DNA from: Escherichia coli
Lineage (GTDB): Bacteria; Pseudomonadota; Gammaproteobacteria; Enterobacterales; Enterobacteriaceae
Direction: 5' to 3' (one strand)
Assembly (NCBI RefSeq): GCF_050920415.1
Contig: NZ_CP169309.1
DNA: 64,000 nt
Shown here: positions 13,239 to 16,304 of the stretch, piece after piece
Layout: each line of letters opens with the position of its first letter
Position numbering within the stretch: position 1 is the stretch's first letter
Translations under genes and position numbers: made by a program
Notes under the pieces: model-generated
Told to the model about the DNA's origin: nothing
The model's input: only the letters and a program-made list of their open reading frames with translations
Database searches by the model: none

Positions 13239-14894
13239 ATGGAATTTTCGTTTTCACCCAAACTTCTTGTTGTGGCTGTCGCCGCCGCTCTTCCACTCAT
13301 GGCCAGCGCAGCAGATACCCCGTCAACCGCCACCGCACGCAAAGGCTTTGCCGGATACGATCACCCAAACCAGTATCTGGTTAAACCGGCGACCACTATT
13401 GCCGACAACATGATGCCGGTGATGCAGCATCCTGCACAAGACAAAGAAACCCAGCAGAAGCTGGCAGAACTTGAGAAAAAAACCGGTAAGAAACCGAACG
13501 TGGTTGTTTTCTTGCTGGATGATGTGGGCTGGATGGATGTTGGCTTTAACGGCGGTGGCGTGGCGGTGGGTAACCCTACACCAGATATCGACGCCGTTGC
13601 CAGCCAGGGGCTGATTTTAACTTCGGCGTATTCTCAACCGAGTTCTTCCCCAACCCGCGCCACGATTCTCACCGGACAATACTCCATCCACCACGGCATT
13701 CTGATGCCGCCAATGTACGGGCAGCCGGGCGGTCTGCAAGGGTTAACCACGCTGCCACAGTTGCTGCACGATCAGGGCTACGTCACCCAGGCTATCGGGA
13801 AATGGCATATGGGGGAAAACAAAGAGTCGCAGCCGCAGAACGTTGGCTTTGATGATTTCCGCGGCTTTAACTCGGTATCTGATATGTATACCGAATGGCG
13901 TGATGTTCATGTCAACCCGGAAGTCGCCCTGAGCCCGGATCGTTCTGAATACATCCAAAAACTGCCGTTCAGCAAAGATGACGTTCATGCCGTGCGCGGC
14001 GGTGAACAGGAAGCCATTGCCGACATTACGCCGAAATATATGGAAGATCTGGATCAACGCTGGATGGAATATGGCGTTAAGTTCCTCGACAAGATGGCAA
14101 AGAGCGATAAGCCATTCTTCCTCTACTATGGCACTCGCGGCTGTCACTTCGATAACTACCCGAACGCCAAATATGCGGGTAGCTCTCCGGCGCGCACCTC
14201 TTACGGCGACTGCATGGTGGAGATGAACGATATCTTCGCCAATCTGTATAAAGCACTGGAGAAAAACGGTCAGCTTGATAACACGCTGATTGTGTTCACC
14301 TCTGATAACGGTCCGGAAGCTGAAGTTCCGCCGCACGGTCGCACGCCGTTCCGCGGTGCGAAAGGTTCTACATGGGAAGGCGGCGTTCGTGTGCCAACCT
14401 TCGTTTACTGGAAAGGGATGATCCAACCGCGTAAATCTGACGGTATTGTCGATCTGGCGGATCTCTTCCCTACGGCGCTGGATCTGGCAGGACATCCTGG
14501 AGCGAAAGTGGCGAATTTAGTGCCGAAAACCACCTTTATTGATGGTGTGGACCAGACATCTTTCTTCCTGGGAACAAATGGTCAGTCTAACCGTAAGGCC
14601 GAGCACTACTTCCTCAACGGCAAACTTTCTGCTGTGCGTATGGATGAGTTTAAATATCACGTACTCATCCAACAGCCATACGCTTATACCCAGAGCGGGT
14701 ATCAGGGTGGATTCACCGGCACAGTAATGCAAACGGCGGGATCGTCGGTGTTTAACCTGTACACCGATCCGCAGGAAAGCGACTCTATCGGCGTGCGCCA
14801 TATCCCAATGGGTGTACCGCTACAGACCGAAATGCACGCGTATATGGAGATCCTGAAAAAATATCCGCCGCGCGCGCAGATTAAATCTGATTAA
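13239..14894 (+). CDS. aslA: Arylsulfatase AslA (sulfatase family, periplasmic)
   Basis: 551-aa ORF with signal peptide and sulfatase signature C-H-F / [12 protein letters not shown] context. Confidence 0.92.
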
Positions 14895-14930
14895 GCCGGC
14901 GCTATCGCTACATCGGGCCACACTGACCTT

Positions 14931-15034
14931 GCCGGATGCGGCGTGAACGCCTTATCCGGCCTACAAGCCTTGCAAATTCAATAAATTGCAGCGTCCTGTA
15001 GGCCGGATAAGATGCGTCAGCATCGCATCCGGCA
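14931..15034. repeat. Pair of inverted REP (repetitive extragenic palindromic) elements forming a BIME between convergent aslA and aslB
   Basis: gccggatgcggcgtgaacgccttatccggcctaca (14931-14965) and inverted copy tgtaggccggataagatgcgtcagcatcgcatccggca (14997-15034). Confidence 0.85.
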
Positions 15035-15068
15035 ATCAACCGCAGGCGGCCACAAAATGGCTGCTTTT

Positions 15069-16304
15069 TTACTTATTCACCACCATCAAATGCGCCTGCA
15101 TAATGTCGCTGGCCGGGCGACCGTGCGCCAGCAAATCAGCCATTGCTTTAAGATATGGCGGTAGATAGCGGAAATAACGCTGATACCCGGCACACAAATA
15201 ATTCAGCCCCGGCTTACCGCTGGCATCGAGCATAAAGCGATGTTTCGGGCAGCCTCCCCAACATGCTTTTAACACGTTACAACTGCGACACTGCGCCGGT
15301 AACAGCTTAAATTTATCTTCTCCAAACACCTGCTGCTGCGGGGAATCTACCATTTCTGCAATTGTTTGCTGAAGCATATTCCCCAGTCGATATTGCGGAT
15401 AAACATAGTGATCGCAGGCGTAAACGTCGCCGTTGTGTTCGACAATCACCGAGCGTCCACAAGTCGGCTGATGATGGCAAACCGCACCCGGCGCACCGAC
15501 AAAATTGGCAAACGCCCATTCGATATTCATCACGAAAATCTTGCCGACGTCACGTTTGATCCAGTGGTCAAAAATTGCCACCAGAAACTCACCGAACTCA
15601 TCGGGGCGCACCGACCATTCTGTCAGTTCCCCCTGAATATCACCAGGCGCATGTAATTTCAGTCCATTGCGGGCAGCTGTTTCATCAGCCAGGCGCTCCA
15701 CCACCGGAATAAACTGGATAAACTCAACGCCTGCATTGCACAAAAAATCATAAACCTGTAACGGTTGCTGCGCGCTGGTGCGGTTGACACAGACCAGCAC
15801 GTTATAGTCGACATGATGTTTTTGCAGGAGCGTCAGGGCACGCATCACCAGCTTATGCGTGGGTCTGCCACCTTTGGTCACGCGATAATGATTGTGGATC
15901 TCAGCCGGACCGTCCAGCGATAACCCAACCAGAAAATGATTTTCTGCCAGAAATGCACACCATTCATCATCGAGCAGCACACCGTTAGTCTGAAAGCTGT
16001 TACTTATCTTCCTGCCAGCACCATATTTCGCCTGTAGCGCCACGGCACGTCGGTAAAAATCCAGCCCGAGTAACGTTGGTTCGCCGCCCTGCCAGGTAAA
16101 AGCCACTTCGTTTTGGGGTTCGCTGGCGGCGATATAGTGACGGACATACGCTTCCAGCGTGTCATCGTCCATATGCGCAACTGGCTTTTCGCGGTAAAGG
16201 GATTGTTTTTCGAGATAAAAACAGTAGTCACAGTTCAGATTACAATCGGAACCGCTTGGTTTCGCCATCACATGAAAAGCACGCGTTGGAACCTGTTGCA
16301 GCAT
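15069..16304 (-). CDS. aslB: Anaerobic sulfatase-maturating enzyme homologue AslB (radical SAM)
   Basis: ORF with CNLNCDYC radical-SAM cysteine motif; start set at MLQQVPTRAF... (411 aa); the ORF track extends 10 codons further upstream. Confidence 0.9.
   Translation of the reverse strand: MLQQVPTRAFHVMAKPSGSDCNLNCDYCFYLEKQSLYREKPVAHMDDDTLEAYVRHYIAASEPQNEVAFTWQGGEPTLLGLDFYRRAVALQAKYGAGRKISNSFQTNGVLLDDEWCAFLAENHFLVGLSLDGPAEIHNHYRVTKGGRPTHKLVMRALTLLQKHHVDYNVLVCVNRTSAQQPLQVYDFLCNAGVEFIQFIPVVERLADETAARNGLKLHAPGDIQGELTEWSVRPDEFGEFLVAIFDHWIKRDVGKIFVMNIEWAFANFVGAPGAVCHHQPTCGRSVIVEHNGDVYACDHYVYPQYRLGNMLQQTIAEMVDSPQQQVFGEDKFKLLPAQCRSCNVLKACWGGCPKHRFMLDASGKPGLNYLCAGYQRYFRYLPPYLKAMADLLAHGRPASDIMQAHLMVVNK

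What the first reader, a model, noticed from the sequence alone, without database searches (positions are those of the whole stretch)
14895..15068. Inverted REP pair (BIME) between convergent aslA and aslB
Two REP palindromes in opposite orientation occupy the 174-bp convergent spacer. They are common but strain-variable genome punctuation and potential gyrase/IHF binding or mRNA-stabilising sites; they are a frequent source of local assembly differences between strains.
Basis: seen in the sequence. Interest (0 to 1): 0.15.

Follow-up and report, generated by a model that had tools for sequence, protein, structure and literature searches.

The report
Flipped REP-pair repeat between aslA/aslB
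The spacer between the convergent E. coli genes aslA and aslB holds an ordinary, well-known kind of palindromic repeat (a REP pair, or BIME); its one unusual property is that in this strain the whole 107-bp repeat sits upside-down compared with E. coli K-12.

Summary
The 174-bp aslA/aslB spacer (14895-15068) contains two REPs in inverted orientation, at 14929-14965 and 14997-15035. They flank a 31-nt linker and are the only REPs in the 64 kb.

The left REP matches the published E. coli REP (Y) consensus at 34 of 34 positions. The linker is the IHF-site-bearing "L" linker of BIME-1. The right REP is not the Z1 unit of canonical BIME-1. It is a 36-nt unit with the length and fold of Z2 and a Y-like stem. 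That combination is found only at this locus, so the element is an atypical single-copy BIME (a REPIN).

A separate + strand intrinsic terminator (15044-15070) overlaps the aslB stop codon.

The locus is highly polymorphic among 5,426 complete E. coli genomes:
- about 2,229 carry the BIME in the K-12 orientation;
- about 21 carry it in the orientation seen here;
- 404 and 852 carry single-REP excision footprints;
- 1,727 carry an aslA deletion that ends at the REP.

The window's BIME is 93.5% identical to the reverse complement of the K-12 BIME and 77% identical in direct alignment. This is an in-situ inversion bounded by the 12-nt outer arms.

Overall the feature is of an ordinary, known kind and of low interest. 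The flip is a modest curiosity.

The parts
13239..14894 (+). aslA (arylsulfatase) CDS, the upstream convergent gene
   Evidence: ORF list; annotation of the 100% identical record NZ_CP169399.1
14895..14928 (.). Left flank between the aslA stop codon and the BIME. This is the 'long' haplotype. It may be a decayed REP remnant.
   Evidence: Alignments show two flank haplotypes that differ by an 8-nt indel. The Rfam naRNA4 alignment matches it weakly to half of a Y REP.
14929..14965 (+). Y-type REP in the CTAC (iREP) form on the + strand; core 14931-14964
   Evidence: 34/34 identity to the published consensus; identical to the Y units of about 70 BIME-1 copies; hairpin -21.3 kcal/mol, z -4.6
14966..14996 (+). 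L-type linker. Its core TGCAAATTCAATAAATTGCA lies at 14971-14990, and an IHF-consensus-like ATTCAATAAATTG lies at 14976-14988.
   Evidence: The core is shared exactly with about 80 Y-L-Z BIMEs of Escherichia and Pseudocitrobacter. The Rfam ES036 model, which corresponds to this linker, scores 29.7 bits here, below its threshold of 37.6. The IHF consensus match alone is at chance level.
14997..15035 (+). Z2-like REP in the GTAG form on the + strand: a 36-nt core with a Y-like CCGGAT stem
   Evidence: It aligns over its full length to the Z2 half of Rfam naRNA4, with compensatory pair changes; naRNA4 consists of Y, linker l and Z2 (PMC4550694). Only the aslA-aslB copies combine L with this REP. 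Hairpin -22.0 kcal/mol, z -5.3.
15044..15070 (+). Intrinsic terminator for the aslA transcript: a 9-bp stem, a 5-nt loop and a T-run. It overlaps the aslB stop codon.
   Evidence: Terminator scan. Fold -12.9 kcal/mol, z -2.7 on the + strand; no significant structure on the - strand. Half of the stem is removed by a 9-bp deletion in K-12 and some other strains.
15069..16304 (-). aslB (anaerobic sulfatase maturase) CDS, the downstream convergent gene
   Evidence: Annotation of the identical record; ORF list

Best explanation
The feature is a single-copy, atypical BIME, also called a REPIN (REP doublet forming a hairpin). It consists of a consensus Y REP, the IHF-site-bearing L linker, and a Z2-like REP in inverted orientation. 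It sits in the shared 3' region of the convergent genes aslA and aslB.

Shown here:
- its identity and anatomy;
- its homology to the Y-L-Z BIME family;
- that it is one long quasi-palindrome. As RNA the spacer folds at about -90 kcal/mol on either strand. As single-stranded DNA the BIME alone folds at -38 kcal/mol;
- that in this strain it is inverted in situ relative to K-12, with breakpoints inside the 12-nt outer arms.

Inferred from what is established for the family:
- It is a non-autonomous repeat, spread and processed by the REP-associated Y1 transposase (TnpA-REP, also called RAYT).
- Both convergent mRNAs run into it, so its hairpins act as 3' barriers to exonucleases and attenuate read-through.
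- aslA transcripts then end at the separate terminator at 15044-15070. aslB has no convincing terminator of its own.
- As DNA, the L linker offers an IHF site.

Both REPs lie 33-36 nt from the stop codons. The translation-coupled effect reported for REPs within 15 nt of a stop codon is therefore not expected here.

The inversion and the single-REP footprints are best explained by the element's unusually perfect inverted arms. These would promote hairpin or cruciform formation, and either RecA-independent strand switching or TnpA-REP cleavage at the REP edges.
For: Anatomy.

Consensus identity.

Family census: of 87 L-core sites, 66 are Y(34 nt)-L-Z1(29 nt). Only the four aslA-aslB copies pair L with a 36-nt REP bearing a CCGGAT stem.

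Z2-like shape of the right REP.

Folding.

Inversion:
- 93.5% identity to the reverse complement of the K-12 BIME, against 77% in direct alignment. The 77% equals the element's own self-palindromy of 76-78%.
- Strains 2018-05-2CC and LHM10-1 share both flanks (3/134 and 0/106 differences). Their BIMEs differ at 3 positions when one is reverse-complemented and at 17 in direct alignment.
- Both orientations also occur in other Escherichia species: E. whittamii and E. coli E69 have the window's orientation, and Escherichia sp. E1V33 has the K-12 orientation.
- The junction of the L linker with the Z2-like REP occurs only at this locus, once per genome, so an ectopic donor is unlikely.

Excision footprints: 404 and 852 genomes. 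Their form matches the 'symmetric excision' of REP doublets described in PMC3337134.

Family properties (IHF at the L linker, mRNA stabilisation, TnpA-REP cleavage at CTAC): PMC3333891.

Control: the canonical BIME-1 between fepA and entD is present in one orientation in 5,345 of 5,426 genomes. It has much weaker inverted arms, 8 nt against 11 + 15 nt, and folds at -23.6 against -38.1 kcal/mol.
Against: No expression, 3'-end, IHF-binding or TnpA-REP data were examined for this locus, so every functional statement is by homology.

The IHF consensus match itself (8 of 9 specified positions) is at chance level in this window: 52 sites found against 47 expected.

The L linker scores below the Rfam ES036 threshold (29.7 against 37.6 bits).

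The evidence for recurrent flipping could also be produced by homologous recombination between old A and B haplotypes, with crossovers next to the BIME.

No flip was seen at the two other BIME loci sampled, so the process is not general or frequent.
Confidence: 0.9

Rival explanations
1. [quoted passage not shown]
For: A Y REP, an L linker with the family's IHF-type core, single copy, and a location at the 3' ends of genes (PMC3333891).
Against: The second REP is 36 nt with a CCGGAT stem. It is not the 29-nt CCTGAT Z1 unit found in 66 of 87 family copies. The conserved outer flanks of canonical copies are absent. The linker scores below the Rfam ES036 threshold, whereas a canonical copy scores above it.
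Confidence: 0.07
2. It is a BIME-2-type strong gyrase site that relieves the positive supercoiling produced by convergent transcription.
For: It contains a Y REP, the unit that gyrase cleaves preferentially, and a Z2-like REP. It lies between convergent genes (PMC6379681).
Against: Gyrase enrichment is reported for BIME-2 elements (PMC6379681), which are described as short-linker, multi-copy tandem arrays (PMC3333891). Here there is one pair separated by the long L linker.
Confidence: 0.05
3. The 107-bp segment is a programmed invertible switch (an inverton) that toggles expression of a neighbouring gene.
For: Both orientations exist between identical inverted arms. They occur within E. coli and in other Escherichia species, and interior haplotypes do not sort by orientation.
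Against: No promoter-like site lies inside the segment. The element is nearly symmetric, so both orientations give almost the same RNA structures. The window's orientation is found in only about 21 of 5,426 genomes, together with derived deletions, which looks like rare mutation rather than switching. The neighbouring genes are a sulfatase, its maturase and tRNAs, and no recombinase gene lies next to the spacer.
Confidence: 0.02
4. The spacer encodes a small RNA gene of the naRNA4/CssrE or ES036/CssrF type, rather than being a passive repeat.
For: Matches to both Rfam families. REP-derived RNAs are reported to be transcribed and to bind HU (PMC4550694).
Against: All matches fall below the gathering thresholds: 40.4 against 59.5 bits, and 29.7 against 37.6 bits. 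They reflect only shared REP and linker sequence. No promoter-like site lies in the spacer.
Confidence: 0.05

Closest known systems
BIME-1 (RIB/RIP elements) of E. coli: Y REP, L linker, Z1 REP
   Same: A consensus Y REP. An L linker with the same 20-nt core and IHF-type motif, in the same polarity relative to Y. A single pair with the CTAC/GTAG ends facing inward. A location at the 3' ends of genes (PMC3333891).
   Different: The partner REP is a 36-nt Z2-shaped unit with a CCGGAT stem, not the 29-nt CCTGAT Z1 unit. The conserved outer flanks of canonical copies are missing. The inverted arms are far more perfect, 12 + 15 nt against 8 nt.
[quoted passage not shown]
   Same: It combines Y, L and a Z2-type unit, which is the definition of a chimera of BIME-1 and BIME-2 motifs.
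   Different: Atypical BIMEs are described as multi-copy tandem arrays, whereas this is a single pair. The Z2-like unit also carries two compensatory stem changes relative to the Z2 consensus.
REPINs (REP doublets forming hairpins) and their RAYT transposases (Bertels & Rainey, PMC3337134 and PMC3116915)
   Same: Two inverted REPs plus a spacer fold into one long hairpin. The single-REP alleles have the form of the 'symmetric excision' footprints (long palindromic REP singlets) described for Pseudomonas REPINs.
   Different: Enterobacterial REP pairs are asymmetric (Y differs from Z). The REPIN papers read here (PMC3337134, PMC8049555) do not mention in-situ inversion of a REPIN.
The same locus in E. 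coli K-12 MG1655 (aslB-aslA spacer, 158 bp)
   Same: The same element at the same junctions, 93.5% identical once reverse-complemented.
   Different: Opposite orientation. An 8-nt shorter flank on the aslA side. A 9-bp deletion that disrupts the terminator hairpin on the aslA-sense strand.

Membership tests
REP (repetitive extragenic palindrome), E. coli Y type | Match to the consensus GCCGGATGCGGCGTGAACGCCTTATCCGGCCTAC, including the GTAG/CTAC tetranucleotide | tested here: met
   14931-14964 is 34/34 identical
REP (repetitive extragenic palindrome), E. coli Y type | An imperfect palindrome that folds into a stem-loop with an internal mismatch | tested here: met
   -21.3 kcal/mol, z -4.6, with a bulged position in the stem
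REP (repetitive extragenic palindrome), E. coli Y type | Extragenic location and many copies per genome | tested here: met
   Lies in the aslA/aslB spacer. The query finds a median of 39 places per E. coli genome, capped at 40 pieces per record.
BIME (bacterial interspersed mosaic element) | [quoted passage not shown] | tested here: met
   Inverted repeats I1 and I2 with a 31-nt linker
BIME-1 (RIB/RIP) | A long L linker that carries the IHF-type site | tested here: met
   The 20-nt L core is an exact match to the family. IHF binding itself was not tested.
BIME-1 (RIB/RIP) | The partner of Y is a Z1 REP | tested here: not met
   The right REP is 36 nt with a CCGGAT stem. Z1 in 66 of 87 family copies is 29 nt with a CCTGAT stem.
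BIME-1 (RIB/RIP) | Occurs as a single copy at its locus | tested here: met
   One pair only
BIME-1 (RIB/RIP) | Specific binding of IHF to the linker | not testable with these tools
   The consensus match of 8 of 9 specified positions is at chance level. A footprint or ChIP experiment is needed.
BIME-2 | Y and Z2 REPs separated by a short S linker, in tandem arrays with s, l or r motifs | tested here: not met
   The linker is L (31 nt) and there is no tandem repetition
Atypical BIME | A chimeric combination of BIME-1 and BIME-2 motifs (y, z1, z2, L, S and others) | tested here: met
   Y plus L plus a Z2-shaped unit
Atypical BIME | Occurs in multiple tandem copies | tested here: not met
   Single pair
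REPIN / RAYT system | A REP doublet that forms one hairpin as a single strand | tested here: met
   The minimum-free-energy fold pairs the two REPs with each other, as RNA and as DNA
REPIN / RAYT system | Mobilised or processed by a cognate RAYT (TnpA-REP) | not testable with these tools
   The excision-type footprints and a deletion endpoint at CTAC are only consistent with it

The most novel reading that the evidence does not exclude
The aslA-aslB BIME is a natural 'flip-flop'. Its unusually perfect inverted REP arms let the whole 107-bp element invert in situ, probably more than once in Escherichia history. The same REP edges also serve as breakpoints for excision footprints and for a 1.6-kb aslA deletion carried by a third of E. 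coli genomes.

In-situ inversion would then be a mode of BIME/REPIN polymorphism that I did not find described. Its cause would be either RecA-independent strand switching at a quasi-palindrome or TnpA-REP cleavage and rejoining.
Probability: 0.4. Interest if true: 0.35.

Novelty: already known. Interest (0 to 1): 0.17.

Why it matters
As a REP pair the feature is routine genome punctuation, and confirming it changes nothing.

Its small added value is as a clean natural example of what a near-perfect quasi-palindrome does to a bacterial locus. One 174-bp spacer exists in at least five structural alleles among complete E. coli genomes: two orientations, two excision footprints and a REP-bounded gene deletion.

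This matters in three practical ways:
- for alignment, pan-genome graphs and variant calling, because a flipped BIME looks like a cluster of 15-20 SNPs;
- for tools that call invertons from inverted repeats;
- for anyone who uses this spacer or aslA as a typing marker.

It also offers a tractable locus for testing whether TnpA-REP or replication template switching causes BIME rearrangements.

Tried and rejected
1. A fixed-spacing REP pattern found nothing because the spacing was specified wrongly. It was replaced by the tail motif and a regular expression.

2. I looked for REP or RIP repeat_region annotation in NC_000913.3. The held RefSeq copy has none in a 50-kb stretch, so there is no curated name for this element.

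3. Bachellier 1997 (PMC1207841) and Boccard & Prentki 1993 (PMC413762) are not held. The Z1/Z2 labels used here rest on Nunvar 2010, Table 1, the naRNA4 paper and my own census.

4. Generality of flipping:
- The E69 locus L049 was useless because its flanks are absent from complete E. coli genomes.
- uvrD-yigE is polymorphic, but no flip was seen in the sample.
- fepA-entD is fixed in one orientation.

5. A - strand terminator-like site inside the aslA 3' end (14881 to 14863) was rejected as chance: -7.3 kcal/mol, z +0.39.

6. The IHF consensus scan is uninformative on its own.

7. The microRNA-family Rfam hits are generic long-hairpin matches far below threshold.

8. The small ORFs in the spacer (14908-15039 on the - strand, 14986-15168 and 15012-15164 on the + strand) overlap the REP palindromes, the terminator or the aslB 3' end. 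They were not pursued.

9. Literature searches for aslA/aslB with REP or IHF found nothing relevant.

Full report

Yes. The window carries aslA (13239-14894, +) and aslB (15069-16304, -) as convergent genes. Both are named from the 100% identical RefSeq record NZ_CP169399.1.

Inside it lie two REPs:
- TTGCCGGATGCGGCGTGAACGCCTTATCCGGCCTACA at 14929-14965
- TGTAGGCCGGATAAGATGCGTCAGCATCGCATCCGGCAA at 14997-15035

They share perfect inverted arms of 12 nt (outer) and 15 nt (inner), and each is itself a palindrome.

The REP tail motif occurs only at these two sites in 64 kb, against 0.22 expected. A head-to-tail REP expression finds only these two units. The left unit is 34/34 identical to the published E. 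coli consensus (PMC12306157). Each unit folds significantly better than shuffles (z = -3.4 to -5.3). The whole spacer folds at about -90 kcal/mol on either strand (z = -7.8 and -5.8), with the two REPs pairing with each other into one long hairpin.

**2. What exactly is it?**

The 31-nt linker (14966-14996) contains TGCAAATTCAATAAATTGCA. I scanned one genome per bacterial species for this core, written as TGCAAATTCAATAWATTGCA to allow the family's A/T variant. The scan returned 86 stretches, almost all in Escherichia species and Pseudocitrobacter.

Aligned, these define the canonical family: a Y REP of 34 nt, the L linker, and a short Z1 REP of 29 nt with a CCTGAT stem. The linker always has the same polarity relative to Y. 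Sixty-six of 87 usable sites have this exact architecture. [quoted passage not shown]

The window's element shares Y and L, but its second REP is 36 nt with a Y-like CCGGAT stem. Only four copies in the census have that combination: the window, E. coli E69, E. whittamii and Escherichia sp. E1V33. All four lie between aslA and aslB.

The Rfam naRNA4 model consists of a Y unit, linker l and a Z2 unit (PMC4550694). Its Z2 half aligns to this REP over its full length, with compensatory pair changes. The best label is therefore an atypical, single-copy BIME: Y, L and a Z2-like unit. In the other nomenclature it is a REPIN.

It fails the Z1 criterion of BIME-1. It also fails the short-linker and tandem-array criteria of BIME-2. 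All Rfam matches fall below threshold. The ES036/CssrF model turns out to be the BIME-1 L linker: a canonical copy scores 40.5 bits and the window scores 29.7, against a threshold of 37.6.

**3. Surroundings**

Downstream of the BIME on the + strand is a canonical intrinsic terminator: stem 15044-15066, then a T-run to 15070. It folds at -12.9 kcal/mol with z = -2.7. Its T-run overlaps the aslB stop codon. On the - strand this sequence has no significant structure.

A - strand terminator-like site inside the 3' end of aslA is at chance level. The aslA transcript is therefore expected to include the whole BIME and end at 15070. For aslB, the BIME is the only strong structure downstream.

The REPs lie 33-36 nt from both stop codons. 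That is outside the 15-nt range reported for translation-coupled REP effects (PMC12306157). No promoter-like site lies inside the spacer.

**4. Strain variation**

Among 5,426 complete E. coli genomes:

| Allele | Genomes |
|---|---|
| Full BIME, all | 2,250 |
| Full BIME as in the window (≥91% identity, full length) | about 21 |
| Single-REP allele, Y type | 404 |
| Single-REP allele, Z2-like type | 852 |
| 1,579-bp aslA deletion | 1,727 |

- The single-REP alleles lack the CTAC/GTAG tetranucleotide. They are hybrids of one REP and the far outer arm, produced by deletions between the short direct repeats ATCCGGC or CGCATC. They have the form of the "symmetric excision" footprints of REP doublets described by Bertels & Rainey (PMC3337134).
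- The aslA deletion joins aslA nucleotide 139 to the CTAC tail of the aslA-proximal REP.
- By contrast, the canonical BIME-1 between fepA and entD is intact and in one orientation in 5,345 of 5,426 genomes.

**5. The inversion**

The remaining full-BIME genomes, about 2,229, match the window at only 83-85%. The reason is orientation. The window's 107-bp BIME is 93.5% identical to the reverse complement of the K-12 BIME and 77% identical in direct alignment. The 77% equals the element's own self-palindromy of 76-78%.

The junctions with the flanks are the same in both orientations, so the breakpoints lie inside the 12-nt outer arms.

Orientation can be separated from flank haplotype. Strain LHM10-1 has the window-like long left flank but the K-12 orientation. 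Strains 2018-05-2CC and LHM10-1 share both flanks (3/134 and 0/106 differences). Their BIMEs differ at 3 positions when one is reverse-complemented and at 17 in direct alignment.

Both orientations also occur outside E. coli proper. E. whittamii and E. coli E69 have the window's orientation, and Escherichia sp. E1V33 has the K-12 orientation. Interior haplotypes do not sort by orientation.

The junction of the L linker with the Z2-like REP exists only at this locus, once per genome. Conversion from an ectopic copy is therefore unlikely.

At least one in-situ inversion is demonstrated. Recurrent inversion is suggested, but it could also be mimicked by recombination between old haplotypes.

The arms are far shorter than a sequencing read. 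The allele recurs in about 20 independent complete genomes and in two other Escherichia genome assemblies. Misassembly is therefore not a credible explanation.

**6. Mechanism**

Identity and anatomy are shown. The functional roles are inferred from the family: an mRNA 3' barrier and attenuator for both convergent transcripts, an IHF site in the linker, and dependence on TnpA-REP (RAYT). The sources are PMC3333891, PMC2817692 and PMC6379681. The IHF consensus match alone carries no weight, since 52 such sites were found against 47 expected.

For the rearrangements, the likely cause is the element's unusually good quasi-palindrome. It has perfect arms of 11 + 15 nt, against 8 nt in a canonical BIME-1, and its single-stranded DNA hairpin folds at -38.1 against -23.6 kcal/mol.

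Short inverted repeats are known, from my own recollection of the plasmid work of Bi and Liu (1996) and not checked here, to mediate RecA-independent inversion by strand switching. TnpA-REP cleaves within CTAC and at the REP feet (PMC3333891). That is where the footprints and the aslA deletion end. Which of the two mechanisms acts here is untested.

**7. Comparison with what is known, and novelty**

REPs, BIMEs and their strain polymorphism are textbook E. coli biology, and the K-12 counterpart of this element sits in the best-studied bacterial genome. The feature is therefore already known in kind and ordinary.

I found no description of in-situ BIME inversion in the papers I could read. The key 1997 polymorphism paper is not held, so I claim no priority. 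No flip was seen at two other BIME loci.

**8. Verdict**

Interest is low at 0.17.

The most novel reading that remains open is that this is a recurrently flipping, excision-prone quasi-palindrome that also bounds a common aslA deletion. I give that a probability of about 0.4 and, if true, modest interest of about 0.35.

Noticed in passing
window 15044-15071: A + strand intrinsic terminator lies here, and its T-run overlaps the aslB stop codon. K-12 and several other strains carry a 9-bp deletion that removes half of its stem, so termination of aslA may differ between strains.
   Followed up: partly
window 13239-14965, compared with L008 and L009: 1,727 of 5,426 complete E. coli genomes carry a 1,579-bp deletion of aslA. 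It joins aslA nucleotide 139 to the CTAC tail of the aslA-proximal REP. The endpoint lies within 1-2 nt of the reported TnpA-REP cleavage site in CTAC.
   Followed up: partly
window 13347-13360: The aslA coding sequence contains TTGCCGGATACGAT, a 13/14 match to the REP outer arm plus loop start TTGCCGGATGCGAT. It lies just upstream of the left breakpoint of the common aslA deletion.
   Followed up: no
window 14895-14928: The flank between the aslA stop codon and the BIME aligns weakly to half of a decayed Y REP in the Rfam naRNA4 alignment. It exists as two haplotypes that differ by an 8-nt indel. It may be a remnant of a once larger REP cluster that reached the aslA stop codon.
   Followed up: no
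L082 388-982 (Escherichia sp. MOD1-EC7003): Five Y-L-Z1 units occur in this one stretch, spaced 115 or 230 bp apart (four steps: 115, 230, 115, 115), although BIME-1 is described as occurring in single copies. Canonical copies elsewhere also carry conserved outer flanks (CAAAGTGCGCTTTGTTCA and ATTTTGCGTTTGTCATCAGTCTCA), which look like remnants of the linker between units.
   Followed up: no
L025, L083, L084, L054: Perfect E. coli-type BIME-1 sequences sit on tiny contigs (261-720 nt, and 3.9 kb) in assemblies labelled Desulfosporosinus, Methylobacterium, Alkalicoccobacillus and a Collinsella MAG. These are most likely enterobacterial contamination.
   Followed up: no
L104 200-241 (fepA-entD spacer); window 14965-15005: The Rfam family ES036 (CssrF sRNA) corresponds to the BIME-1 L linker plus the GTAG/CTAC feet. 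A canonical copy scores above the gathering threshold. That family is therefore in effect a model of a repeat.
   Followed up: partly
L014 40147-40292, compared with L101, L102 and L103 (uvrD-yigE spacer): A second BIME with an L-like linker lies in the neighbouring K-12 region. It is also polymorphic. Many strains have a SAM-hydrolase gene in place of yigE and only a single, perfectly palindromic REP after uvrD. No orientation flip was seen in the sample.
   Followed up: partly
L026-L042, L085-L088 (Pseudocitrobacter): Pseudocitrobacter species carry many canonical Y-L-Z1 BIMEs with the exact Escherichia L core. No Salmonella, Citrobacter or Klebsiella genome was among the returned matches. 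This is an odd phylogenetic distribution for the L linker, although the scan appeared incomplete.
   Followed up: no
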